From an uncultured Pseudomonadales bacterium (lineage in GTDB: Bacteria; Patescibacteriota; Microgenomatia; UBA1400; PJMF01), in NCBI GenBank assembly GCA_964457085.1, contig CAYWDM010000001.1:111690-175689 (forward strand): a stretch of DNA of 64,000 nt. The letters run 5' to 3'. The position numbers and the translations under genes were made by a program. The first letter of the stretch is position 1. Every line of letters starts with the position of its first letter. A model generated the notes under the pieces. That model had not been told where the DNA came from, ran no database searches, and saw only the letters and a list, made by a program, of their open reading frames with translations. Below are positions 6,999 to 52,776 of this stretch, one piece after another.

Positions 6999-9035
6999 AT
7001 GTCATTAGAACCAGTACAACAACTCGACCAAGAAAACTCATTACTGCCCACAGCTCAGGTTAAAAGACTTGATATTGATGATCTTGGCACCACTTCTGAC
7101 GACGAAACGCTCACACAGTTTACTCAATCAGCAGCAATCAAAACCTCTATGTCACGCAAATCATCATTTAAACCTTGGATGAAAGTATTGTTAGTCATCT
7201 GTATTATTTTGTTGGCAGTTGCTGGTGGTGTAGCTATTGTTGGCTTCAAAGCCTCACAAGTGGCCATCAAATTGCGATCACAGAGCGAAGATGCAAAAAT
7301 ACTTGGTAATTCCGCATATACAGCTTTCAAAGCTCAAAACCTTCCTGAAGCAGAAACAAAGCTCAAAGAGGTTAAAACCAAAGTCGATGAAATGGAAACT
7401 ACCTATCAGGAACTTGCTGTTTACGGCAAAATGCCCCTATTCAGTGGATATTTCCAAGATGGCGAGCATGCTTTCAAAGCTGCTAAGGCATCATTAAATG
7501 GTGGTGAAAAAGCACTAGCTGCAATTACTCCATACGCTGATGTTTTAGGGTTTAAGGGTGAAGGTACTTTCACTGGGGGTACTGCTGAAAATCGCATTAA
7601 AATGTTGATCGAGACGCTTGACAAAGTAATGCCGGTTTTTGACGAGATCAACACTGAATTTAAGATTGCCGAACAAGAATTGGCAGCCATTGACTCGAAT
7701 CGTTATCCCGAGCAATTTAAAGACATGAAAATCCGTTCACAAATTGTTGATGCTCAAAACATGGCTAAGACAACCATCGCCACTCTTGAAGAGTTCCGTC
7801 CTGTTTTGGCACAACTACCAGATATCGCTGGTGGCAAAGGTCAACGCAAAAAATATTTGATCTTATTTCAAAACGACAATGAACTCCGCCCAACTGGTGG
7901 TTTCTTAACTGCTTATGCAGTCGTTTACATAGAAAATGGCAAAGTTACTCCAGAAAAATCAGATGACATCTACGAACTAGATAAGAAATTTACCAAAAAA
8001 ATTCCTATCCCTGAAAAGTTAGGCAAATACCTGGTTACTGAGAAACTCTTTCACATGCGTGACATGAACACTTCACCAGATTTCAAAACTTCGATGGATC
8101 TCTTCTACTCACATTACAAAACCATCAAGACAGAGCCTGACAATATCGACGGCATCATTGCCATTGACACACAAATGCTGACCGATTTAGTTTCGATCCT
8201 TGGTCCAGTTGAAATTGCAGGTTATGGAACTTTTAGTGCTGAAAACGACAAACACTGTGACTGTCCACAAATTGTCTATGCACTCTCAGAAATCATTACT
8301 CGACCAACCCCATACCTAAGAGTAGACCGTAAAGGCATTCTTGGGCCCATGATGCAATCGATTTTAGCCAAGACCTATGGTGCTAACAAACAAGTCTGGC
8401 CAAAACTTTTTGAAACAGCTTGGAAAGGCGTTGAGGGACGTCATATTCAAATGTATTTCATGGATGAAAAAGCCCAAGCTGCTGCAGAAGCAGTGAATGG
8501 AGCAGGCAGAATGATTGCCCCAACCAACGGTGAGGATTTCCTAGCTATCGTTAATGCCAACCTTGGGGGTGCCAAATCAAATCTGTTTATCAATTACGAC
8601 CTCAAACAGACAGTTTCTGCACCAGAAAATGGTCAAATCACCAAAACTATCGAGATTACCTATAAAAACTCTCGAAAAGGTGATAACTGCAATCTCGAAG
8701 CTGGCTTGCTCTGTTTGAATGCACGTCTAAATGACTGGACTCGAATTTATGTTCCAGCTGGTTCGAAACTGGTCGAAGGTAAAGGTTTCATCAAAGAGCT
8801 CACTCAATATGATGAGGCTGGATTCACCGTCTTCGATGGAAACTTCAACCTTGAGCCAATGAGTTCTGCCAAATTAGTTGTAACGTACACAGTGCCATAC
8901 TCTGACGCGACAACTTATAAAACAACCGTGTGGAAACAGGGCGGCATCAGTCCATTCAATAGTATGTTTGATGTGGCTGGTGGCGAAGAGCAGGTGTTAG
9001 TTGATAAAGACACTGCCTTCCAAACCAAGTTCTAG
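6999..9035 (+). CDS. DUF4012-domain membrane-anchored protein
   Basis: N-terminal TM helix. KYLILFQNDNELRPTGGFLTAYAVVYIENGKV matches the DUF4012 signature (RYLVLFQNNAE.R.TGGFIG) found in polysaccharide loci. Confidence 0.7.
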   Translation: MSLEPVQQLDQENSLLPTAQVKRLDIDDLGTTSDDETLTQFTQSAAIKTSMSRKSSFKPWMKVLLVICIILLAVAGGVAIVGFKASQVAIKLRSQSEDAKILGNSAYTAFKAQNLPEAETKLKEVKTKVDEMETTYQELAVYGKMPLFSGYFQDGEHAFKAAKASLNGGEKALAAITPYADVLGFKGEGTFTGGTAENRIKMLIETLDKVMPVFDEINTEFKIAEQELAAIDSNRYPEQFKDMKIRSQIVDAQNMAKTTIATLEEFRPVLAQLPDIAGGKGQRKKYLILFQNDNELRPTGGFLTAYAVVYIENGKVTPEKSDDIYELDKKFTKKIPIPEKLGKYLVTEKLFHMRDMNTSPDFKTSMDLFYSHYKTIKTEPDNIDGIIAIDTQMLTDLVSILGPVEIAGYGTFSAENDKHCDCPQIVYALSEIITRPTPYLRVDRKGILGPMMQSILAKTYGANKQVWPKLFETAWKGVEGRHIQMYFMDEKAQAAAEAVNGAGRMIAPTNGEDFLAIVNANLGGAKSNLFINYDLKQTVSAPENGQITKTIEITYKNSRKGDNCNLEAGLLCLNARLNDWTRIYVPAGSKLVEGKGFIKELTQYDEAGFTVFDGNFNLEPMSSAKLVVTYTVPYSDATTYKTTVWKQGGISPFNSMFDVAGGEEQVLVDKDTAFQTKF

Positions 9036-41786: not shown

Positions 41787-43004
41787 TTAGTAGATCGGAG
41801 TGCTGTTACGCTCCGCATAACTAATTAGCCGCTTGTGAGCAGCCAATGAGCCATCTTTCTCGCCCGTTACAGCCCAGATCTCACCATTGACTAGTGCGAT
41901 CTCAGCTTGCTGAGGGTTTGTGGTAAAGCGCTCAAACCGCCGAGTACGGGTTTGCGATACATCTACCTTTGGATAGGGAGCCATCGGTAAACCGGTGAGC
42001 ACCCACTTCGAGGTGGTACCGCTGTCCATGGTTTCATCCGTGAAAGCGGCCTCGGACGATTTCTTGTCCTTAGCAGCCAACAAAACAGACGAAACTACAG
42101 TCAACGAACGGTCTCCAAAATCCCCAGCCACTCCCAATAGTTCTGAAACATACTGGATAGAGCTGGTATAGATACCGCCTGAGATCATGCCACCTTCAGC
42201 CGCCACAACCGTGGATCGACTGTGTGCCATAACAGCACGGGTAACAGAATCGCAAATAAACACCACATCATATCCTGCTTGTGTAAGTCGACGAGCTCGC
42301 TTCACAGCAAACTCGAAAACCTGCACCTGGATATGCAATGGATCCTCACGAGGAGAAGTGAAGAATTCACCACGCTCAGGACCAACCAGATCCCAAACTT
42401 TTTTGTAATCGGTGAAGTCTTCAGATCTTTCTCCTAGATGAAGAACAATGGGATACAACTTCGCATCTTCTTTCGTAAGACGAAGCAGTGCTTCCCATAA
42501 TGCCAGCAGAACGCTGGTTTTACCACTGCCGCCTGGGGCGGCTAGGTAAATGGACTGGCCTTTGCCAATCGGGGCCAACAAAGTCAGCACCCGCAAAGAC
42601 AAATTGCCAAACTTTTCCACTCTCAAAGGACGAGTGGGATAGTTGGCCCCGAGAAATATACGCTTGTCGCGCAAATCCTCAGCCTCGCCAACGATCCGTG
42701 GCCACGCAGAGACCATTGCTGGATCTGTGCAGCCATTAACCGAGATGATGCTGTCTGGACTCTCGGAACTGAGTTCAACCAAATCGCCTTCTTCCAGATT
42801 CCACCTTAACACCACCGATGGACTAACCACCAGTGAATATTGAGGAGCATTGGGAGATTGCGCTTGGTCAATCAGATGCTGACGCCGGTGAGTTCTGAGT
42901 TTCCCCAGATTTCCCGGTATTAACGTTGTGAGTGGCGGCACGCGTTCCCCGTAAACGAGGACTGCGTTTGGATCCACTCCTTGCTGAAGCACCCATGCTT
43001 TCAA
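41787..43004 (-). CDS. Divergent Rho-family RecA-like ATPase (transcription termination factor Rho homolog)
   Basis: [31 protein letters not shown] versus Rho [40 protein letters not shown] versus [38 protein letters not shown] versus HVQVAEMVIEKAKRLVE..VIILLDSITRL. TTG start with an AGGAGGTG RBS. Higher GC than the surrounding genes. Confidence 0.65.
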   Translation of the reverse strand: [405 protein letters not shown]

Positions 43005-43219
43005 GGTTCACCTCCTGAGTGACTGAATGGGGTTTGACTCACCTCGCCTCTTTTTAAGGCATAGGGGAAAACTTAGTCCTATCAATTAATTTCAATAAGA
43101 CAAACTTTTCCCCTGTGCCAAATAATCCTTATTTGGCTGTTAAAGAACAAACACAACAAGAGAGCTTGGCCAACGGGCAAGGGGTGGAAAACCACCCCAA
43201 GCCCGAAGACACAAACTAA

Positions 43220-44401
43220 CTAACTTTCACGGAATGCGGGCCAGGGGTTTTCCATGGCTGGTGCATCGGTAGATGCAGGGATGACGGATTGACCATTTCT
43301 TCGATCCCAAATTCCAGGATCATCAGCTGTCAACAAGTCAATTACTTTGCCATCCTTTCCAACTTTTGCCCTTAGGGCCTCAAGATCAGCCACTTTGAAA
43401 GTGCCTGTTCTTAGGTTTCCTTGGAGCCCAACCTTGATTTTCTCTGCTTCCACAGCCAGAGCTCTAATGATTTGATTGGTCGACATGCACCAATCAACGC
43501 CACCAATGATGTTTGTGGCAAACTGCATGGCACTGGGAATGATTAGATACCCTGTGCCACTCTTCGAGTATAACAAGCGATTCCAGAGGTCCTGGAGGGC
43601 ACCAGTTCTACTCGGTCCCATGTTTTTGGTTAATCTGTCGATATCAGTTCCAGCCAATAACTCTTTGCAAGGAATTAGATCACCAAATGAAGCATCTGGA
43701 TCTTTCCCAAACAAAGTTGGCCTGACATTTATCTCCACCATAAACATGTTTGTGATTACCAACCGAGAATGCCGAGATTCCCAAGCTTTCACCCAATAGA
43801 TCAAGGGTAAAATGAAAAATGGCACTACGAAACCAACTAGAAAGTACCAGTAGTTCATTTCTGGCACCACTTCGCTGATCAACCCGGTGGTAACAATGAC
43901 ATAGAATCTATAGAGAAACTCTACAATGACGACCAATAGTCCGAAGACAAAGCCGGCACCAACAGCAGCCAGACTGGATGAGAACGTTACCCAACCAGCT
44001 GTTGCCATCAAATTCTTGTCAATGACAAGTTGGAGCTTTTCTCCTTCCTGCATAACCCAAGGCATAGAGCTTGGGAGCCACAGAAAATCAAAAACTTTGG
44101 AGATTAGAGGCTCTACTACCCGAACTATCCAGGCAATCAGAAACCAGAAAATCACCAATCCTACCACCGTCCAACCAATAGCTAGTAGGATCCTTACGAT
44201 GTTTTCCACACGTACCTCCTTTGTGGGTGGTACTCCTCTTACTTCCATACTCGCGAGAGTTGGGGAGCAGATGAAGCACCATGAATGAAGTGGATTGACA
44301 CCGGTATCCTTCAAGAGGACACCGTCGGCCGTTCTGCTCCCTTTTTCGGAGCTAGGGCTTTGTCTCATTGTTTTTTTGTCACTGCATGTCATGGTTGACA
44401 T
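43220..44401 (-). CDS. Polytopic membrane protein (hypothetical)
   Basis: Four TM helices then a ~200 aa soluble domain. The first 40 codons lie inside the 446-bp repeat and are identical to those of the ORF at 46192-48261. The true start may be an internal Met (MEVRGVPP). Confidence 0.45.
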   Translation of the reverse strand: MSTMTCSDKKTMRQSPSSEKGSRTADGVLLKDTGVNPLHSWCFICSPTLASMEVRGVPPTKEVRVENIVRILLAIGWTVVGLVIFWFLIAWIVRVVEPLISKVFDFLWLPSSMPWVMQEGEKLQLVIDKNLMATAGWVTFSSSLAAVGAGFVFGLLVVIVEFLYRFYVIVTTGLISEVVPEMNYWYFLVGFVVPFFILPLIYWVKAWESRHSRLVITNMFMVEINVRPTLFGKDPDASFGDLIPCKELLAGTDIDRLTKNMGPSRTGALQDLWNRLLYSKSGTGYLIIPSAMQFATNIIGGVDWCMSTNQIIRALAVEAEKIKVGLQGNLRTGTFKVADLEALRAKVGKDGKVIDLLTADDPGIWDRRNGQSVIPASTDAPAMENPWPAFRES

Positions 44402-44727
44402 GTCTTGAGAAACAGTGACACAGAGCCCTAGCTATATATCTGAAAAAGAAGAGTGGAGAAACAAACCAAAAAAGAAGTTATCAGTTTTTTTATTTTAATA
44501 AAAACATCTTTGTTTTTATATATCTCTCTTGTTGTGTTGTTAAAGATCTACCAAGCAAAACAGTTGAGAACTATACGCAAACAGAGACGCAGTGTGATTT
44601 GTGTTATACAGATCACGGTCTCTGTTGCACCTCTCAACCGATTATATTTACTTGGTCACTGTTTCGACTTCGAGAAGTCTCATCAGGTCTAGGCAAAACC
44701 TAGACGACAGTGCACAACAAGAGAGTG
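44282..44727. repeat. 446-bp direct repeat, copy 1 (100% identical to 48142-48587)
   Basis: Verified block by block. Contains a hammerhead ribozyme, an AT-rich putative promoter, nested hairpins around a start codon, and 40 shared codons. Confidence 0.9.
44657..44712 (-). ncRNA. Type III hammerhead ribozyme (copy 1)
   Basis: Minus-strand RNA 5'-CACUGUC|GUCUAGG-UUUUG-CCUAGAC-CUGAUGA-GACUUCUCGAAGUC-GAAA-CAGUG-3'. Closed stem I (7 bp), complete CUGAUGA core, stem II closed by G10.1-C11.1, GAAA, and a 6-bp stem III with a GUC cleavage triplet. Confidence 0.8.
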
Positions 44728-46191: not shown

Positions 46192-48261
46192 CTAATCGCT
46201 CCTACCTAAACTCTCTACCAACACAGCTGGCAGGTGAACCTGCAAATGTGCGAGTAATTCTTGCTCGGATTCGGCTTTCCCAAATCGTCTAGGATCGTAC
46301 ACGTCAGCCATTTGATGGCCATCGTTTCCCAAACGAACGAGAATACTGCAAGACTCTACGAAACCGGCTGGGAAGTCTTTCACCAGCTCTTCCACCGAGT
46401 GAACGGTGAAATAGATATGTTGCCGATCCTTACGGACCGTATCTACAGCTTCGCGCATCTTGAGACGCGCACGTGCACCCAGTTGAGGACCGGTTTGGCC
46501 CAAAAATGAGTCTGCTGCTGATGGAAAACTCACCATGTCATCGAAAACGACATGGATTGTCCTACCACTCTCAACAGTCCACAAAGCCCACGCCTGAGTT
46601 AGTGCCTCGTAAAAGGCAAGAACCCAATTGTAGTACCGTAGGCTGTTGACCTTAGGTCTAATTGCAAGTGGCAACCAGCTTTCACCAGTTGTTCTCCACT
46701 TTTCTGCCAGTTTCCTGACAAAATCTTGAGCCTTTGCCGAATCCTTACGGAACAGCTCCTGTTCAAGATCAATGGCAGTTCTGTCGCCCTCTCCCTGATT
46801 GACATCAGGAAGATCTATTTCAACGACTTGACCACCAAAGGCTTTCGACCATTTATGACTCCCCTCCTTATCAGCGCTTTTCAACTGAACAAATACAACG
46901 TCAGCTGATTGCTGCAACATATAGAATGCTGCAAGCGTTGATTTTCCCGTCCCAGATGGACCCTCGAAAATCGTTGAGGGATACCTGGAGGCGTTCAAGA
47001 AAAAGGGTTGCTCCGGTTTTGCCAATTTACCGATCATGGCATAACCGAATGAGTGAGCTGTCTTCGGGGAGACAGATTCAGCGAGTTTGGCAAGTAGCTT
47101 CTCCGGCTTTTTAAGCAGGAAAGGTTTCCAAGCAGGTGGGGGTTGGTGACCTACCATGAAGCCAAAGTGAGCCTCACGGACTGCATTCCCAGTCAACCGC
47201 TCCCAACCTGGACCAATCAAGTCAAGCCTATCTTGAAGTGAATCAAGATTTGTTTGACCATTACTCGCAACCGCACTTTCTGCTCGAATAACTAACCGAA
47301 CATAAGCACGATTTTCAACTCTTTCGAGATGAAGCAGCACGTCAACATTGAGTGCCAATAGCTCATCGAGCTGGCGCTGCAATTCTGAGAGCTGTTTTTC
47401 AGGGTCTTTTTCCAGAGTTGCTATCACCCCAGTCCAAAACCCTAGCGCCTTACTACCTAGAAGCACATCGCTCATTCGCCAGCGGATAGCCAGCGGTGCA
47501 GCAATTAACTCGGGTTGTAAGGTGCCTGTGTACGTCATCGAAGACAGGTCAGCGTTATTTCTGCCATACTGACTTCGATTAAGCGTTGCCCGGACGAAGT
47601 TTCCTGATTCATGGTACGAAACCAGGTGACCTTCCGCAAAACGGCGCTGCTTATCTAAATGACGGCGAATGTTCAACCATGGTGCCCAAAGAACCAATTC
47701 TCTACCAAAAGGTTTTGAACCGGTGGGCACAGCCCATTCACTGACAGAAGCCAGGAATTCGGCGTATGGTTGGATCGCCTGCTTGCGTAGTTGCGCCTGG
47801 CGCAACATCTCCTTAAACGTCCCAGTGTCTTTCGGCACAGCACGAAAAAGAAGAGTAAACTCAGGCAACAATCTTGTCAGCTGCGCCAGATCAGGAACAC
47901 CACGGTTAAAATACACCGCCGCATTCCATCCCTTTTGAGCCTCATGACTGTCACTAACGTACCTACGGGAAAATCCCGCAGCGCCACCATCCAATGATGC
48001 TATCTGAAGATCGATCATTTGTCTTGATTCGACCAACTGATTTCTCACTGGTACTGGCAATTGAGAACCTAACGTGGCCACAGTACCTCCTTGTGGGGGT
48101 ACCTCGTCTCGCTCCTTTTGAGGGGAACAAAACAAAGTACCTGAATGAAGTGGATTGACACCGGTATCCTTCAAGAGGACACCGTCGGCCGTTCTGCTCC
48201 CTTTTTCGGAGCTAGGGCTTTGTCTCATTGTTTTTTTGTCACTGCATGTCATGGTTGACAT
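46192..48261 (-). CDS. P-loop NTPase, VirB4/TraC(ConE)-like ATPase candidate
   Basis: Walker A IFEGPSGTGKSTLAAF in the C-terminal half. Walker B-like HVVFDDM ~130 aa later. 689 aa. The first 40 codons are shared with the 43220-44401 ORF through the repeat. The true start may be internal. Confidence 0.45.
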   Translation of the reverse strand: MSTMTCSDKKTMRQSPSSEKGSRTADGVLLKDTGVNPLHSGTLFCSPQKERDEVPPQGGTVATLGSQLPVPVRNQLVESRQMIDLQIASLDGGAAGFSRRYVSDSHEAQKGWNAAVYFNRGVPDLAQLTRLLPEFTLLFRAVPKDTGTFKEMLRQAQLRKQAIQPYAEFLASVSEWAVPTGSKPFGRELVLWAPWLNIRRHLDKQRRFAEGHLVSYHESGNFVRATLNRSQYGRNNADLSSMTYTGTLQPELIAAPLAIRWRMSDVLLGSKALGFWTGVIATLEKDPEKQLSELQRQLDELLALNVDVLLHLERVENRAYVRLVIRAESAVASNGQTNLDSLQDRLDLIGPGWERLTGNAVREAHFGFMVGHQPPPAWKPFLLKKPEKLLAKLAESVSPKTAHSFGYAMIGKLAKPEQPFFLNASRYPSTIFEGPSGTGKSTLAAFYMLQQSADVVFVQLKSADKEGSHKWSKAFGGQVVEIDLPDVNQGEGDRTAIDLEQELFRKDSAKAQDFVRKLAEKWRTTGESWLPLAIRPKVNSLRYYNWVLAFYEALTQAWALWTVESGRTIHVVFDDMVSFPSAADSFLGQTGPQLGARARLKMREAVDTVRKDRQHIYFTVHSVEELVKDFPAGFVESCSILVRLGNDGHQMADVYDPRRFGKAESEQELLAHLQVHLPAVLVESLGRSD

Positions 48262-48587
48262 GTCTTGAGAAACAGTGACACAGAGCCCTAGCTATATATC
48301 TGAAAAAGAAGAGTGGAGAAACAAACCAAAAAAGAAGTTATCAGTTTTTTTATTTTAATAAAAACATCTTTGTTTTTATATATCTCTCTTGTTGTGTTGT
48401 TAAAGATCTACCAAGCAAAACAGTTGAGAACTATACGCAAACAGAGACGCAGTGTGATTTGTGTTATACAGATCACGGTCTCTGTTGCACCTCTCAACCG
48501 ATTATATTTACTTGGTCACTGTTTCGACTTCGAGAAGTCTCATCAGGTCTAGGCAAAACCTAGACGACAGTGCACAACAAGAGAGTG
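48142..48587. repeat. 446-bp direct repeat, copy 2
   Basis: Identical to 44282-44727 and offset by 3860 bp. Confidence 0.9.
48517..48572 (-). ncRNA. Type III hammerhead ribozyme (copy 2)
   Basis: Identical 56-nt sequence to copy 1. Confidence 0.8.
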
Positions 48588-48929: not shown

Positions 48930-50338
48930 GGTAGATCATCTCCATCGCTAATCACGATCGTATCCTTACCGGTAAACGGGTCGGATGCTGACTGCGAAGC
49001 GGAATCATCGAAATTGCTGGACAAATCACTTGGCCCTGTAGGCAGCACGTCGTCATCTGACACCAAAGTGTCTGAGACTATTGTTGCTGTAGTTGTGCCA
49101 ACTTGAGTGATTGTCCCTTCGATTTGCGTTTGGGTAGTGGGCAACTCATCCAGCTTGTCCACATCGTCACTGACGACAATCGTAGCCGCATCAACCGAAG
49201 CTGAACGACTCTTCTCATCACCGGTTTCGATTACGGGCAGCTCATCTTCTAAATCATGAGAGTCTGCCCCGTAAACCACTTGCTTAGGTGAATCCGAAAA
49301 TTCATCGTTTGCTGTTTCCTTAACCTGACCATCGACGACTCCGCTAGTTGCAGAGAGAAGACCGTCATTGGGAGGATAAGCATAGATGACATCAGAGTCG
49401 CCTTGTGGACCGTTGCCACCACTGCCACCACCGTCCACACCATCATCCGAAGAATTAGGCGTGAAAGGAAAAGGCACGAATGTTGCTGTGCTAGAAGCAT
49501 CAGCTCCAGTACCTTCGGCGGGCAGTTCGTCTTGAGCTGATTCTTGCTCGTCAGCGCTTTCACTTGGCATATAAACAATCGCCAAGATCGGCGGCAAAAA
49601 GTAAGTAACCAACCCCAGAATTAGCATTGTCACCAGATAAATCAGGTTAAACGCAACAAAGCTGCTCACGATCGCATTATCCGGACGGATGCTGCCAAGC
49701 AATTCTGTCACATTTTTGACCACTTCTGGTGCCAGTATCCAACCAGCAATACTCGCCGCAGCAACCCCAAGAGGCCGCCACGACCAAGTCATTATCGCGA
49801 CCGCAACACAGATGATGAGCACCACTGAGGTGACAATCTGCATCGCAGCATGAAATAACGGCCAGTTGAGAATGAACGACAACGCCCATATGAAACTGAG
49901 TGGGTTGGTGTCACCGACTGGAATCGGAAACGTCCAACCCAACTGAGTAGCAATCCAGCTGAGCGTGAGCGCCTCAGGCCAAGTAGCTCGGCCGAGTTGC
50001 TCAATGGCTGGTAAGATATAAGGGAGTATTCCTACCCCAAACATCAAACCAAACATTTTACGGACTTTACCCCAATTTTGTTTCTTCAAGCCAGAAATAA
50101 TGCCGAGTAAAGCAATCGGCACAAGGCACTGAAGAACAGAGAGCAACCCTTTGGCTGCAGATTGGGATAGATTGATGAACGCCATGCTTTTTAAGGGCAC
50201 CGCGTCATCAATTGCCCGATCGATTGCGCCACATCCCGAAAGAAATAGCATCGAAAGGGTTAGAATGATCGCGACCCTGAGTTTCATGGTCGCACTTCTA
50301 CTTGATACTGGAGACGAGGTTTGTGATGAGCAAACCAA
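48926..50338 (-). CDS. Polytopic membrane lipoprotein with a long acidic disordered C-terminal tail (VirB6/ConG-like candidate)
   Basis: Lipobox LSGC after a signal peptide. At least six TM helices. ~170 aa D/E/S/T-rich C-terminus. Likely start at the internal ATG near 50287 (MKLRVAIIL). Confidence 0.45.
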   Translation of the reverse strand: MVCSSQTSSPVSSRSATMKLRVAIILTLSMLFLSGCGAIDRAIDDAVPLKSMAFINLSQSAAKGLLSVLQCLVPIALLGIISGLKKQNWGKVRKMFGLMFGVGILPYILPAIEQLGRATWPEALTLSWIATQLGWTFPIPVGDTNPLSFIWALSFILNWPLFHAAMQIVTSVVLIICVAVAIMTWSWRPLGVAAASIAGWILAPEVVKNVTELLGSIRPDNAIVSSFVAFNLIYLVTMLILGLVTYFLPPILAIVYMPSESADEQESAQDELPAEGTGADASSTATFVPFPFTPNSSDDGVDGGGSGGNGPQGDSDVIYAYPPNDGLLSATSGVVDGQVKETANDEFSDSPKQVVYGADSHDLEDELPVIETGDEKSRSASVDAATIVVSDDVDKLDELPTTQTQIEGTITQVGTTTATIVSDTLVSDDDVLPTGPSDLSSNFDDSASQSASDPFTGKDTIVISDGDDLP

Positions 50339-50546
50339 TCCCCTGTGTCAGTGGACCGCTGGTGATGATATCCTTGGCTGCAAAAGCTGAAAGCGCCAGG
50401 ACAAACCACATCGCGACGACGACAGAAGTGTCGCCCCAAGAGGTCATCTTCTTGACCTTATTCACAGACTCGGGGAACACAGTGACCACACCAAACACTA
50501 TCATGGCGCTGATCAGAGCCGTACCGAAGTTGATTAAAGCTTGCAT
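50298..50546 (-). CDS. Small membrane protein (82 aa)
   Basis: AGGAG RBS 6 nt upstream of the ATG. Two TM helices. Preceded by conserved structured leader A. Confidence 0.45.
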   Translation of the reverse strand: MQALINFGTALISAMIVFGVVTVFPESVNKVKKMTSWGDTSVVVAMWFVLALSAFAAKDIITSGPLTQGIGLLITNLVSSIK

Positions 50547-50571
50547 GTTTACTCCTTATTTCTGAATGGTT

Positions 50572-50664
50572 GAATGGATTGACGATTGGAACAACGACGG
50601 GCGTCTTGCGACGCCGTGAGGATGCCCCATCTAGGGGCGGACAATTTGTGCGATATGCACCTCC
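50572..50664 (-). promoter_or_regulatory. Conserved structured 5' leader, copy A
   Basis: Minus-sense GGAGGUGCAUAUCGCAC..CCCCUAGAUGGGG..GGCGUCGCAAGACGCC (GNRA-like loop), then RBS and ATG. ~85% identical to copy B. Confidence 0.45.
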
Positions 50665-50950
50665 GTTAAGGATGGGATGTAGTGCAACGAACAGCTTTGC
50701 CCTTTTTTTGGGCTTGGGCCTAATAAACACTCATAAAAAAATAAGCGCTCATTGAGCCCAAGCCACGACAACCAACAGCTATATAAGAAGTTTAGTAAAT
50801 TCTCTTGTTGTGCTGTTAATGAGCAAGGCGACAAGTAACCTATTACAATAACAAGTTCTTATCGAAATACCCAGGCCAAATATGGCCAGATAACAACACA
50901 ATTATGCGGTTATCCAGCAATACTTTAAAAAGTAGGGGAATGAGTATTCA

Positions 50951-50984
50951 TTCAATTATGAGAGCGAAGTTTCCTTCGCCCTCA
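50951..50984 (-). terminator. Rho-independent terminator of the 153-aa gene
   Basis: 15-bp near-perfect stem ATTATGAGAGCGAAG / CTTCGCCCTCATAAT with a T-rich tail on the minus strand. Confidence 0.5.
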
Positions 50985-51006
50985 TAATTTCTGAATGATT
51001 GGTGGC

Positions 51007-51468
51007 TTATGTCGTGGTGTCTACGGACAGAGTCGACGGAGCGACGGGATAGGCAAACATCGGCGCCATCTCCGCATCACTCATGCCGCATGCTTTTGCC
51101 ATAATGCGTGCAGAATTAGCAGACGCTTTATTGATTTGGCTTCGAGTGTTAATGCGGAGAACTTCCACATCGCCAATCATGCCAACCAAAAAACCATCCT
51201 TTAACTCTACACGGACAAAACACATGCCCTTTGGGGCAAGCAGGCGAGTGTACAACTTACGTGCGAAAATCTCGCGCGAAACAGCTGTGCTCAACTTCAA
51301 GCTCATCTTGGGCGACTCGTAATCCCAGATGACTTCCCCACCGGGGTCGTCAGTGCTGAAACCACAAACAAACAACAACTGCGCTTCATTAGTGCAGATG
51401 ATCGCAAAACCGTCTTCTGGCATGCGAATCGAACGTGACCCTTTCGAGGCCGGGGCTTGTTTAGCCAT
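51007..51468 (-). CDS. Hypothetical protein (153 aa)
   Basis: GAAGGAG RBS then ATG at 51468 (MAKQAPASKG). Preceded by leader copy B. Confidence 0.5.
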   Translation of the reverse strand: MAKQAPASKGSRSIRMPEDGFAIICTNEAQLLFVCGFSTDDPGGEVIWDYESPKMSLKLSTAVSREIFARKLYTRLLAPKGMCFVRVELKDGFLVGMIGDVEVLRINTRSQINKASANSARIMAKACGMSDAEMAPMFAYPVAPSTLSVDTTT

Positions 51469-51493
51469 GACTGATACTCCTTCTAACTTGAAT

Positions 51494-51584
51494 GAATGGA
51501 TTGACAACGAGCAACGACGGGCGCCTTATGACGCCGTGAGGGTACCCCATCTAGGGGCGGACAATTTGTGCGATATGCACCTCC
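51494..51584 (-). promoter_or_regulatory. Conserved structured 5' leader, copy B
   Basis: Same three-hairpin arrangement as copy A, with a compensatory U-A to U-G change in the third stem. Confidence 0.45.
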
Positions 51585-52082
51585 AAAAAAAACAGAATGT
51601 AATACGGGCATGCTCTTTTTTTGAGCTGGGGCCAAAGCTACTAACAGGTATGACTATTAACAGCTTTGACCTCAGCTCTTATACTCATTCCCCTGTTAAG
51701 GTGCGAAACGACAAAAAAATTGCAACGCAAATGCTGCAAATATTTATATCGTTTTGCTATCAAATCTAAACAAAAAGTATCCTATATATATCAGTAGAAA
51801 AACATTACAGGACGTGTTATACATCTTCAATATGTAAAAGTCAATATACTTTGATAGAGTTCAACTCGATAAAAAATACAAAAAAACCTTCTCCCTCTTG
51901 CGAGAGAGCAGGCGATGCCACAAATGGAACGATATTTTGGCAGTCTGTTGAGCGGCATTCTGACAAACGCATTCACTTCAGTTCATCTCGAATTCTCGAT
52001 CAACCTTGTCAACAAATAACAAACAACTATGAGTTTTTACTCCAGACACAATTGCATTAGAAAAACTAATCCATACCTGAAT

Positions 52083-52445
52083 TTAATACATTTTTCCACC
52101 AACCACAGCAAAAACCTTATCAGGCCTAATCAATACACAGTCACCCTCGCCATCTGGGACTCCAAGCGTCAAACACTCAGAAATAAAAGGACCAATCTGA
52201 CGTGGTGGAAAATTTACCACTCCTAGAACTAGGGTATTCAATAATTGATCTGGCGTATAGTGTTTTACCAATTGAGCACTAGATTTCTTGGTTCCAATTT
52301 CAGCACCAAAATCTATTAACAGTTTGTATGCTGGCTTCCGAGCTTCAGGAAATTCTTTAACCTCTACAATCTTTCCAACTCGAACGTCAATTTTTTGGAA
52401 ATCTGAATATTCAATTTGCGAGAATGGTAGGGTAGAAACAGACAT
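52083..52445 (-). CDS. csaA: tRNA-binding protein CsaA/Trbp111 (EMAP-fold)
   Basis: KIDVRVGKIVEVKEFPEARKPAYKLLIDFG, the tRNA-binding OB fold. Confidence 0.8.
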   Translation of the reverse strand: MSVSTLPFSQIEYSDFQKIDVRVGKIVEVKEFPEARKPAYKLLIDFGAEIGTKKSSAQLVKHYTPDQLLNTLVLGVVNFPPRQIGPFISECLTLGVPDGEGDCVLIRPDKVFAVVGGKMY

Positions 52446-52607
52446 AACTATTCCTTAATTAACAAAAATAAAATCTATCTACTCATATCTTACCAGATTA
52501 AAAAAACTAACTACAAGTCTGGTGAAAAGTAGTGAATAGATTAATATAGTATTGTTAAAGCCGTAGTTATTCTAACAAACGAGCACTATGTATCGATGTA
52601 TACTAAT

Positions 52608-52776
52608 ACTACCTTCGGGGTAGGTTGATCTTGCGTAACCGCGAGAAAATACCAATCGGTGGTACACTCCACGAGTCTTGCTTGCGAGACATGATCTGGT
52701 GAAACTCCAGAAGCGACCGTATAGTCGGGTATAAAGAAGGTACTCAAAAAACCACGCTATTTTGCGTGGTGTTTTG
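52608..52776 (+). promoter_or_regulatory. FMN riboswitch (RFN element) with intrinsic terminator
   Basis: P1 UACCUUC/GAAGGUA. 5' UUCGGGGUAGGUUGA..ACCG..CGGUGGUA and 3' UGGUGAAACUCCAGAAGCGACCGUAUAGUCGGGUAUAAAGAAGG, closely matching RFN UGGUGAAAUUCCAAAGCCGACAGUGAAAGUCUGGAUGGGAGAAGG. Terminator CCACGC/GCGTGG + UUUU at 52752-52776. CCCCGAAG at 52782-89 is complementary to the P1 5' strand, and GGGGCAU pairs across the SD. Confidence 0.75.

What the first reader, a model, noticed from the sequence alone, without database searches (positions are those of the whole stretch)
50555..51600. A ~92-nt three-hairpin 5' leader present twice upstream of two different small island genes
Copies at 50572-50664 and 51494-51584 (minus-sense) are ~85% identical. 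Both contain GUGC-AUAUC-GCAC, CCCC-UAGAU-GGGG and GGCGUC-(GCAA/AUAA)-G(A/G)CGCC hairpins. A U-A to U-G change in the third stem preserves pairing. Each copy ends 6-10 nt before a strong RBS and ATG (82-aa membrane protein; 153-aa protein). Conservation of structure rather than of coding sequence suggests a cis-regulatory RNA (riboswitch, thermometer or protein-binding leader) or a conserved promoter-operator cassette of the island.
Basis: seen in the sequence. Interest (0 to 1): 0.55.

Follow-up and report, generated by a model that had tools for sequence, protein, structure and literature searches.

The report
Duplicated hairpin leader before two genes
Two near-identical ~95-nt hairpin-rich stretches really do sit in the untranslated leaders of two neighbouring genes of a rare, horizontally acquired gene cluster, but they are a clade-specific add-on to a larger shared leader design kept alike by gene conversion, not a riboswitch-like conserved RNA family.

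Summary
There are two minus-sense copies (50572-50664 and 51494-51584) sharing a 40-nt identical core, where none is expected by chance.

The element matches no Rfam family. A covariance model built from it finds only one further instance, before the orthologous g2 gene of a diverged relative (L006).

It is constrained: 79% identical between the window and L006, against 38% at four-fold degenerate sites. Structural support is only anecdotal, with one compensatory pair and three wobble changes in three sequences.

Hairpins 2-3 are absent from the orthologous leaders of two other lineages and from L006's g1 leader. One of those lineages (L015) carries a different GC-rich insert in both of its leaders. 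The g1 and g2 leaders are therefore homogenised within genomes (concerted evolution).

The parts conserved across the cluster family are:
- a long hairpin followed by a GCYC-A7-GRGC mini-hairpin (4-5 per cluster);
- an SD-like GGAGGUGC;
- a CA-rich tract just before the RBS.

The same 8-gene cluster carries two type III hammerhead ribozymes (before g5 and g7), complementary boxes bracketing each transcription unit, and a Rho-fold paralog.

Best reading: a cis-acting 5'-UTR RNA module for coordinated mRNA stability or translation, not a ligand sensor. Its mechanism is unproven.

The parts
50572..50664 (-). Copy B of the three-hairpin element, in the leader of g2 (82-aa membrane protein). H1 is 50660-50657 / 50651-50648. 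H2 is 50638-50634 / 50628-50624. H3 is 50615-50610 / 50605-50600. The SD-like GGAGGUG is at 50664-50658. This is the 'home' copy, because it is also present in relative L006.
   Evidence: CM R1, 106.9 bits
51494..51584 (-). Copy A of the element, in the leader of g1 (153-aa protein). H1 is 51580-51577 / 51571-51568. H2 is 51558-51544. H3 is 51535-51530 / 51525-51520. It is a lineage-specific replacement: relative L006 has unrelated sequence here between the conserved ends.
   Evidence: CM R1, 105.9 bits; only one R1 hit in L006
50571..50583 (-). 3' box GUCAAUCCAUUCA, the start of the CA-rich tract running to the RBS (AAGGAG 50557-50552). The same box is at 51505-51493. A variant, GUCAAUCCACUUCAUUCA, ends the 465-nt repeat before g5 and g7.
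50699..50764 (-). Long imperfect hairpin (50764-50711) plus mini-hairpin GCCC-A7-GGGC (50713-50699), upstream of copy B. This is the cluster-wide leader module.
   Evidence: CM R2, 75.7 bits
51612..51678 (-). Long imperfect hairpin (51678-51623) plus mini-hairpin GCUC-A7-GAGC (51626-51612), upstream of copy A.
   Evidence: CM R2, 68.3 bits
51816..51844 (-). Candidate sigma70-type promoter of g1: TTGACT-17 nt-TATAAC. The two hexamers and the 17-nt spacing are conserved in L006 (TTGAAA/TATGAT) and in L011 and L008 (TTGACT/TATACT), while the spacer sequence varies. It places copy A inside a ~345-nt 5' UTR.
   Evidence: read from sequence; TSS not mapped
51007..51468 (-). g1: 153-aa protein of unknown function. 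Near-orphan, with 2 clusters among 5.8 billion proteins.
   Evidence: AF2 model unusable
50298..50546 (-). g2: 82-aa predicted membrane protein. First gene of the g2-g3-g4 unit.
50801..50822 (-). Direct box UUAACAGCACAACAAGAGA in the g2 leader. Its complement CUCUCUUGUUGUG lies after g4 (48587-48571), immediately 5' of a hammerhead.
   Evidence: (D5, I19, I20)
48518..48571 (-). Type III hammerhead ribozyme between g4 and g5. An identical copy is at 44658-44711 between g6 and g7.
   Evidence: (RF00008 full length, 30.7 bits, E=2.7e-5, below the gathering score of 48.5)
41787..43004 (-). g8: Rho-fold paralog and last gene of the cluster. Its own RBS is GGAGGUG.

Best explanation
The ~92-nt element is a transcribed, cis-acting segment of the 5' untranslated leaders of g1 and of the g2-g3-g4 unit. 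These belong to a rare, horizontally acquired 8-gene envelope-machinery cluster.

Every unit of the cluster has a long modular leader: a long hairpin, an A7 mini-hairpin, an SD-like GGAGGUGC, one or more stable hairpins, a CA-rich unstructured tract, and then the real SD.

The three-hairpin block (mainly hairpins 2-3) is a clade-specific elaboration of the 'stable hairpin' slot. It arose in the g2 leader and was copied into the g1 leader of this genome by gene conversion between the paralogous leaders.

Inferred mode of action:
- It works at the RNA level, without a ligand.
- Together with the decoy-strength SD (GGAGGUG, fully complementary to the canonical 16S rRNA 3' end) and the CA-rich standby or enhancer tract, it sets the stability and translation efficiency of the processed mRNA.
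- Because both leaders carry the same block, g1 and g2-g4 behave alike.

What is shown: presence, copy number, constraint, leader location relative to a conserved promoter, clade restriction, and concerted evolution. What is inferred: RNA-level action, and the stability/translation role.
For: - Two copies, with none expected by chance.
- The element lies downstream of a promoter conserved in four lineages.
- No promoter-like site lies inside it.
- The element core is 79% identical between the window and L006, against 38% at four-fold degenerate sites and 51% in the adjacent spacer. The 31-nt centre has one change across three copies.
- 98% of stem cells are paired. There is one C-G/U-G/U-A series, and three wobble changes that pair only on the sense strand.
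- Within-genome g1-vs-g2 leader identity is 0.78, 0.88 and 0.92 in three lineages. Orthologous L011 and L015 leaders are only ~0.48 identical, because a different ~120-nt GC-rich hairpin insert sits in both L015 leaders.
- GGAGGTG, or GGAGATG in L006's g2 leader, recurs in every g1/g2 leader inspected, including distant L017; in L008's hybrid leader the equivalent position reads AAGGAGGCG instead.
- The adjoining long hairpin + A7 module shows 9 of 15 pairs with double-sided changes. A model of it finds 4-5 copies per cluster and nothing elsewhere.
- Hammerheads in the sister leaders show that this cluster's transcripts are processed RNAs. This agrees with PMC3088659.
Against: - Only three sequences exist, so covariation has no statistical power (309/500 shuffles reach the observed score).
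- Folding energy is unremarkable.
- Hairpins 2-3 are dispensable in L011 and in L006's g1 leader, so any role is accessory.
- Loops and linkers are as conserved as stems. This suggests sequence-specific recognition that the model does not explain.
- No transcript ends, RNase data or reporter data exist.
- The high identity to L006 could partly reflect recombination between lineages rather than selection.
Confidence: 0.45

Rival explanations
1. The element is a processing or self-cleavage site. It would be a new small ribozyme, or a specific RNase target, that generates a 5' end inside the element after ...UUGUC. This would be analogous to the hammerheads that cut at GUC in the sister leaders.
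For: - The cluster already uses two hammerheads per copy.
- Bacterial self-cleaving ribozymes tend to cluster near each other (PMC6765202).
- A Logan contig (L004) has an Illumina adapter fused exactly at UUGUC|CGCCCC.
- UGUCC is conserved in all g1/g2 leaders.
- The 31-nt centre, including loops and linker, is nearly invariant.
Against: - No match to any ribozyme family in Rfam, even in a 156-nt scan.
- No CUGANGA/GAAA core.
- Hairpins 2-3 are absent in L011, which keeps UGUCC.
- The adapter junction is a single observation from a run of unknown library type and was noticed post hoc.
Confidence: 0.07
2. The element is an attenuator linked to the cluster's Rho-fold paralog (g8). The C-rich, G-poor tract after hairpin 3 would act as a loading (rut-like) site, or hairpin 3 as a weak intrinsic terminator. 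Leader read-through would then be tuned by g8 or by the host Rho.
For: - g8 has a full-length Rho fold. It forms its own subfamily found only in this cluster.
- The tract CCCGUCGUUGUUCCAAUCGUCAAUCCAUUCAACCAUUCA is C-rich and G-poor.
- Hairpin 3 of copy B was flagged as terminator-like.
Against: - The Rho RNA-binding Pfam domain is not detected, and the Y80 equivalent is Val.
- The tract is short (~40 nt).
- The terminator call applies to copy B only, and the T-tract is poor in copy A and in L006.
- g8 could equally be a translocation ATPase of the envelope machine, since FliI-family ATPases are the next-best match.
Confidence: 0.12
3. The element is a ligand- or temperature-sensing riboregulator (riboswitch or RNA thermometer).
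For: A multi-hairpin leader just upstream of an RBS. A possible three-way junction closed by GAG/CUC (G6-C51, A7-U50, G8-C49). The centre is highly conserved.
Against: - No Rfam family matches.
- It is not conserved in orthologous leaders.
- The downstream genes are membrane or unknown proteins, with no metabolic link.
- The real SD is unpaired in predicted folds.
- L015 has a different insert in the same slot.
Confidence: 0.05
4. The element is a DNA-level feature: an operator or promoter cassette, or a recombination substrate. It would be repeated because a DNA-binding protein or recombinase uses it.
For: - The leaders do recombine. L008's g7 leader is a g1/g7 hybrid, with six genes deleted.
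- Leader pairs are homogenised.
- Loops are conserved as well as stems.
Against: - No promoter-like hexamers lie in the element.
- The wobble changes would be A-C mismatches on the other strand.
- Small 4-6 bp hairpins are not typical operators.
- No recombinase or repressor is recognisable in the cluster.
Confidence: 0.08
5. The element is a functionless GC-rich hairpin insertion that spread between the two leaders by gene conversion.
For: It is clade-restricted and dispensable in L011. Different inserts occupy the same slot in L015.
Against: 79% identity against 38% at neutral sites, and 51% in the neighbouring spacer, argues for purifying selection. The element is not dispersed elsewhere.
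Confidence: 0.13

Closest known systems
Hammerhead-flanked genes in prophage-like regions, i.e. processing of polycistronic RNA (Perreault et al. 2011, PMC3088659)
   Same: The same gene cluster has two type III hammerheads flanking blocks of genes. Repeated, structured intergenic RNA signals mark each transcription unit of a horizontally acquired cluster.
   Different: The three-hairpin element lacks the hammerhead core and matches no ribozyme family. It sits next to the RBS, not at the unit boundary.
STAB-SD 5' mRNA stabiliser of Bacillus thuringiensis cryIIIA (Agaisse & Lereclus 1996; cited from my own knowledge, not read here)
   Same: A strong Shine-Dalgarno-like sequence (GGAGGUG) lies deep in a long 5' UTR, 75-190 nt from the start codon, with no conserved ORF behind it. 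It is conserved in nearly all g1/g2 leaders inspected. The leader appears to be processed.
   Different: No evidence that the mature 5' end lies just upstream. In several lineages the motif is base-paired. The host's RNase J/Y repertoire is unknown.
putL/putR RNAs of phage HK022 (from my own knowledge)
   Same: Two similar copies of a multi-stem-loop RNA in the leaders of two operons of a mobile element, acting in cis.
   Different: put RNAs are two-stem structures directly downstream of promoters, and they act on RNA polymerase to suppress termination. There is no sequence or structure similarity. No terminators to bypass were identified here.
RNase III processing stems of T7 early mRNAs and of rRNA operons (from my own knowledge)
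   Same: Repeated long imperfect hairpins occur before each gene block. Complementary boxes bracket each unit and covary between lineages: CACAACAAGAGAG / CUCUCUUGUUGUG, and GGGGAAUGAGUAU / AUACUCAUUCCCC.
   Different: These features lie next to the three-hairpin element, not within it. Cleavage has not been shown.

Membership tests
Any Rfam 15 family (riboswitches, leaders, ribozymes, sRNAs) | Score at or near a family's gathering threshold with its covariance model | tested here: not met
   Nothing over the element at the gathering threshold. Nothing at E<=10 over 1.9 kb or over 156 nt; the best hits were 13 bits to unrelated families.
Riboswitch (generic) | Aptamer conserved with covariation across orthologous leaders in diverged genomes | tested here: not met
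   Model R1 finds only winA, winB and L006-g2 in 208 kb. L011, L015, L017 and L006-g1 leaders lack hairpins 2-3. One compensatory pair, with no statistical support.
Riboswitch / RNA thermometer | Expression platform: the SD or start codon is sequestered, or a terminator forms, in an alternative fold | tested here: not met
   The real AAGGAG is unpaired in the centroid folds of both copies. Only copy B's hairpin 3 passes a loose terminator filter.
Hammerhead ribozyme (for the element itself) | CUGANGA and GAA core, three helices, UH cleavage site | tested here: not met
   No core motif in the element. UGUC|C is present, but without the catalytic core.
Hammerhead ribozyme type III (for the neighbouring g5/g7 leaders) | Full core, G10.1-C11.1 and A15.1-U16.1 pairs, GUC cleavage site, stems I and II closed, compensatory changes | tested here: met
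   RF00008 aligns 1-54/54 at 30.7 bits, E=2.7e-5, below the gathering score of 48.5. A strict descriptor finds exactly 2 per cluster and none elsewhere. Stem II and stem III covary between lineages. Catalytic activity was not tested.
STAB-SD-type 5' stabiliser | SD-like sequence complementary to the 16S 3' end in the 5' UTR, not used for initiation | tested here: met
   GGAGGTG, or GGAGATG in L006's g2 leader, occurs in every g1/g2 leader inspected; L008's hybrid leader has AAGGAGGCG at that position. The putative uORF changes frame between the L011 copies, so no conserved peptide exists.
STAB-SD-type 5' stabiliser | Mature mRNA 5' end just upstream of the motif; stabilisation depends on 30S binding | not testable with these tools
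   No transcript-end data or half-life data.
Dispersed repeat (REP/MITE-like hairpin element) | Many copies scattered in the genome, outside one operon | tested here: not met
   Only two copies in 64 kb. None in other loci except the orthologous site. No exact hits in three public collections.
Intrinsic terminator / attenuator | GC-rich stem followed by a U-tract, conserved | tested here: inconclusive
   Copy B's hairpin 3 is flagged, with tail CGTCGTTGTT. Copy A and L006 have poorer tails. No equivalent exists in L011.

The most novel reading that the evidence does not exclude
The nearly invariant centre of the element (UAUCGCACAAAUUGUC|CGCCCCUAGAUGGGG) could be a new RNA-processing motif, either self-cleaving or recognised by a cluster-specific factor such as the Rho-fold paralog. 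It would operate alongside hammerheads in an operon whose mRNAs are cut into units and closed by 5'/3' complementary boxes. The adapter-fused contig end at GUC|C would then be a genuine RNA 5' end.
Probability: 0.07. Interest if true: 0.8.

Novelty: new variant of a known kind. Interest (0 to 1): 0.5.

Why it matters
On its own, the element is a small, clade-restricted leader RNA of unknown role. Its context is what gives it value. This rare 8-gene cluster is carried at different chromosomal sites in different uncultured bacteria. Every transcription unit in it has a long, modular, covarying leader. Two units are released by hammerhead ribozymes. Each unit is bracketed by complementary 5'/3' boxes. 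A private Rho-fold ATPase is encoded at the end.

The biological role of bacterial hammerheads is still largely unknown (PMC6765202). A compact, repeatedly organised system like this one offers a tractable case for testing how ribozyme cleavage, leader structure and translation signals cooperate. The concerted evolution of the leaders is also a clear natural example of gene conversion keeping regulatory RNAs matched.

Tried and rejected
- **Rfam.** Scanned at gathering and permissive thresholds, wide and narrow. Nothing for the element or for the L015 insert.
- **Exact-pattern scans.** Viral, genome and metagenome collections gave 0 hits.
- **Protein-guided scans.** A g1 alignment found no relatives in the genome or metagenome collections.
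- **Upstream ORF / leader peptide.** The idea was GUG CAU AUC ... UAG, with GUG changed to AUG in L006. Rejected because the SD abuts the start codon, and a 1-nt indel between L011's two copies changes the frame and the peptide.
- **Degenerate hammerhead in the g1/g2 leader.** L011 has UCGAAAAACAG-loop-CUGUC|C. Rejected because there is no CUGANGA core.
- **tRNA-like fold.** ARAGORN finds none there.
- **Defence system or phage identity of the cluster.** No PADLOC hits. Only one weak PHROG hit of unknown function.
- **g5 ATPase profile against PDB.** Only P-loop noise.
- **g1 structure prediction.** Unusable, pLDDT 39.
- **Host identification.** Exact protein look-up returned no names.
- **Library type of the SRA runs.** No paper found.
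Full report
**1. Observation**

Reading the minus strand of 49800-52400 shows the two stretches described.

- A 40-nt core, GGAGGTGCATATCGCACAAATTGTCCGCCCCTAGATGGGG, is identical at 50664-50625 and 51584-51545. No match occurs in 100 dinucleotide shuffles, even allowing 3 mismatches.
- The ungapped 93-nt repeat is 85% identical (D2).
- The stem-3 segment occurs exactly twice.
- RNAfold recovers the three hairpins in both copies. In copy A it also recovers a short closing helix (GAG/CUC) around hairpins 1 and 2. The energies are not unusual (z = -1.5 and -0.5).
- The genes downstream are an 82-aa membrane protein (g2, 50546-50298) and a 153-aa protein (g1, 51468-51007).

**2. Context: a GC-rich 8-gene cluster**

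The region 41.6-51.9 kb has 0.47-0.51 GC, against 0.35-0.42 in the flanks. It abuts tRNA-Thr. All eight genes are on the minus strand:

| Gene | Product |
|---|---|
| g1 | 153 aa, unknown |
| g2 | 82 aa, membrane |
| g3 | 452 aa, polytopic lipoprotein |
| g4 | 99 aa, membrane |
| g5 | ~630-689 aa, P-loop ATPase |
| g6 | 473 aa |
| g7 | ~330-393 aa |
| g8 | 405 aa |

Pfam, NCBIfam, PHROGs and PADLOC say little about them. In distant relatives g6 is an SLT + M23 peptidoglycan hydrolase.

g8 is a Rho-family paralog:
- All of its best matches among solved structures are Rho (E ~1e-23, residues 57-369).
- NCBIfam Rho models score ~95 bits, far below their cut-offs.
- A confident AF2 model (pLDDT 84) matches Rho over nearly its whole length (TM ~0.7).
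- It forms its own small subfamily, P0005-P0015.

**3. Relatives**

g1 and g3 are near-orphans, with two clusters each among 5.8 billion proteins. The loci obtained were:
- L006 is a syntenic fragment (g1-g4; proteins 54-73% identical).
- Through g8 I obtained the full cluster in L011/L012/L013 and L015, sited between ychF and rpsF, which is a different host site.
- L017 is a distant full cluster.
- L014 and L018 are partial clusters.
- L007 has the same right flank as the window.
- L008-L010 retain only g7-g8.

The element itself has no exact match in the viral, genome or metagenome collections. A g1 profile found no further loci. Assemblers break contigs inside the 40-nt core, as expected for a repeat.

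**4. What comparison shows about the element**

(a) L006 has the element before g2, diverged. Before g1 it keeps only the ends (GGAGGTG... and ...GTTGTCAATCCATTCA), with unrelated sequence between them. The rest of that leader aligns at ~84%. The window's copy A is therefore a lineage-specific replacement.

(b) L011's two leaders are 88% identical to each other but lack hairpins 2 and 3. After GGAGGTGCATATCG comes an AAAACA/UGUUUU hairpin, and then UGUCC runs straight into the CA-rich tract.

(c) L015's two leaders are 92% identical to each other. Both carry a different ~120-nt GC-rich insert with GNRA-type loops (GUAA on two hairpins), found nowhere else.

(d) A covariance model of the three-hairpin structure finds only its three training sequences in 208 kb. 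The next hit scores 9.9 bits.

The three-hairpin block is thus confined to the window/L006 clade. The g1 and g2 leaders evolve in concert within genomes.

**5. Is it constrained, and is it structured?**

Between the window and L006, identity varies sharply by region:

| Region | Identity |
|---|---|
| Four-fold degenerate sites | 38% (86/226) |
| Element core | 79% |
| Long hairpin + A7 module | 87% |
| Spacer between the two | 51% |

The central 31 nt has one change across the three copies. This argues for purifying selection.

On the three sequences, 98% of stem cells pair. One pair runs C-G, U-G, U-A, and three others change through G-U. Shuffles reach the same score 309 times in 500, so there is no statistical power. 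All of the wobble changes pair only on the sense strand. This weakly favours a sense RNA.

**6. The larger leader design**

Upstream of every copy lies a long imperfect hairpin. Its stem base is conserved (GCUUGGG.../...CCCAAGC) and its top varies. A GCYC-A7-GRGC mini-hairpin follows it.

- Across nine leaders, 9 of 15 predicted pairs show double-sided changes.
- A model of this module also recovers the g5/g7 leaders of the window, L011 and L015; the g7 leader of L018; the g8 leaders of L014 and L007; and, weakly, the window's g8 leader. It hits nothing else in 178 kb.
- GGAGGTG, or GGAGATG in L006's g2 leader, recurs in every g1/g2 leader inspected, including L017; L008's hybrid leader has AAGGAGGCG at that position.
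- A CA-rich (A/U)UUCA-repeat tract precedes every RBS. It is shared with the 465-nt, 97%-identical repeat before g5 and g7 (44262-44727 and 48122-48587).
- A sigma70-like promoter upstream of g1 keeps its hexamers and 17-nt spacing in four lineages. This places copy A inside a ~345-nt 5' UTR.

**7. Ribozymes and bracketing boxes**

The g5 and g7 leaders contain a complete type III hammerhead: CACUGUC|GUCUAGG...CCUAGAC CUGAUGAG ACUUC..GAAGUC GAAAC AGUG.

- Rfam RF00008 aligns end to end (30.7 bits, E=2.7e-5). The score is below the gathering score, and the hit is missed in wide scans.
- A strict descriptor finds exactly two per cluster in the window, L011-L013 and L015, and none elsewhere.
- Stems II and III covary between lineages.

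This matches the arrangement described for prophage-like regions, where several hammerheads flank genes and are thought to process polycistronic RNA (PMC3088659).

Each unit is also bracketed by complementary boxes. CACAACAAGAGAG lies in the leader. CUCUCUUGUUGUG lies at the end of the unit, directly 5' of the hammerhead. There are three compensatory states across lineages: ...GAGAG/CUCUC..., ...GAGAU/AUCUC... and ...GAAAG/CUUUC....

g1 is bracketed by GGGGAAUGAGUAU / AUACUCAUUCCCC. In L011 and L015 this is GAAUAU / AUAUUC.

**8. Interpretation**

The evidence best fits a cis-acting 5'-UTR RNA segment. It is an accessory, clade-specific hairpin block in a modular leader whose conserved parts are the long hairpin/A7 module, the SD-like GGAGGUGC and the CA-rich tract.

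By analogy, and from my own knowledge rather than tests here, three precedents apply: SD-like 5' stabilisers (cryIIIA STAB-SD), 5' hairpin protection, and CA-rich standby or enhancer tracts. On that basis I infer that it tunes mRNA stability and translation, and that homogenisation keeps g1 and g2-g4 matched.

Riboswitch or thermometer, DNA operator, neutral insert, Rho-paralog attenuator and new ribozyme remain as rivals, with the weights given in the rival list.

**9. Unexplained**

Contig L004 (SRR21799893) has an Illumina adapter fused exactly at ...UUGUC|CGCCCC.... That position is inside the invariant centre, after the same GUC triplet that the hammerheads cut. The library type is unknown. 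If the library is RNA, this would be a 5' end inside the element.

**10. Verdict**

The feature is real and conserved above the neutral rate, and it is a new sequence. It is not a member of any described RNA family. It is not a widely conserved structure, and it is not shown to sense anything. Interest is moderate for the element itself. The surrounding ribozyme-processed, box-bracketed, concertedly evolving leader system is the more remarkable finding.

Noticed in passing
window 48518-48571 (-) and 44658-44711 (-); L011 4748-4801 and 8449-8502; L015 4678-4730 and 8416-8468; L013 1210-1263 and 4911-4964; L018 ~1340-1420: Complete type III hammerhead ribozymes lie between g4|g5 and g6|g7 of the cluster. 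Rfam RF00008 aligns full length at 30.7 bits, below the gathering score, and wide scans miss it. Stems II and III covary between lineages. A strict descriptor finds exactly two per cluster.
   Followed up: yes
window 44262-44727 and 48122-48587 (-); L011 4730-5029 = 8431-8730: The leaders of g5 and g7 share a ~465-nt repeat at 97% identity (100% in L011). It includes the hammerhead, both boxes, a long hairpin and the first bases of the annotated ORFs. The listed 689-aa and 393-aa ORF starts are therefore probably too far upstream. The true starts likely follow AAGGAGGUAC near 48075 and 44200.
   Followed up: partly
window direct boxes 50801-50822, 48385-48406, 44525-44546; inverted boxes 48571-48587, 44711-44727, 43150-43164: Each transcription unit is bracketed by complementary boxes. 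CACAACAAGAGAG lies in its leader and CUCUCUUGUUGUG at its 3' end, just 5' of the hammerhead cleavage site. Three compensatory variants occur across lineages (GAGAG/CUCUC, GAGAU/AUCUC, GAAAG/CUUUC). This suggests 5'-3' pairing of processed mRNAs, or inverted protein-binding sites.
   Followed up: partly
window 51681-51693 and 50935-50947 (-): A 13-nt box GGGGAAUGAGUAU lies upstream of g1's long hairpin, and its exact complement AUACUCAUUCCCC lies after g1's terminator-like hairpin. L011 and L015 have GAAUAU / AUAUUC, which is compensatory. This could be a long-range RNA duplex or a DNA inverted repeat bracketing g1. On the opposite strand the box overlaps a promoter-like TTAACA-17-TATACT.
   Followed up: partly
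window 41787-43004 (-): g8 is a divergent Rho-fold paralog (AF2 pLDDT 84; the top 50 PDB fold hits are all Rho). It forms a private subfamily found only at the end of this cluster. The Rho RNA-binding Pfam domain is not detected.
   Followed up: partly
L008 8333-8862 (also L009, L010) versus L011 1358-1828 and 8390-8851: Genomes with the same host flanks as L011 lack g1-g6. The leader of their g7 is a hybrid, with a g1-type 5' part (promoter, box, long hairpin, A7, GGAGG) and a g7-type 3' part. The deletion therefore arose by recombination between the repeated leaders.
   Followed up: partly
L004 1-40 (corresponds to window 50635/50636): An Illumina adapter is fused to the g2 leader exactly after ...UUGUC. 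This marks a library fragment end inside the element's invariant centre. The library type is unknown.
   Followed up: partly
window 50981-51001 versus 50552-50572 (-): The first bases after g1's stop codon (AAUCAUUCAGAAAUUAUGAG) resemble the pre-RBS tract of g2 (CCAUUCAGAAAUAAGGAG) at 86%. This hints that g1 plus a leader copy arose by duplication or insertion within an ancestral leader.
   Followed up: no
window 52607-52745 (+): An FMN riboswitch (70.5 bits) lies upstream of a membrane protein and an ECF-type ATPase, in the host flank just outside the cluster.
   Followed up: no
L011 17552-17752, L008 17510-17709: glmS ribozymes lie upstream of glmS in the host genomes that carry the related clusters.
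   Followed up: no
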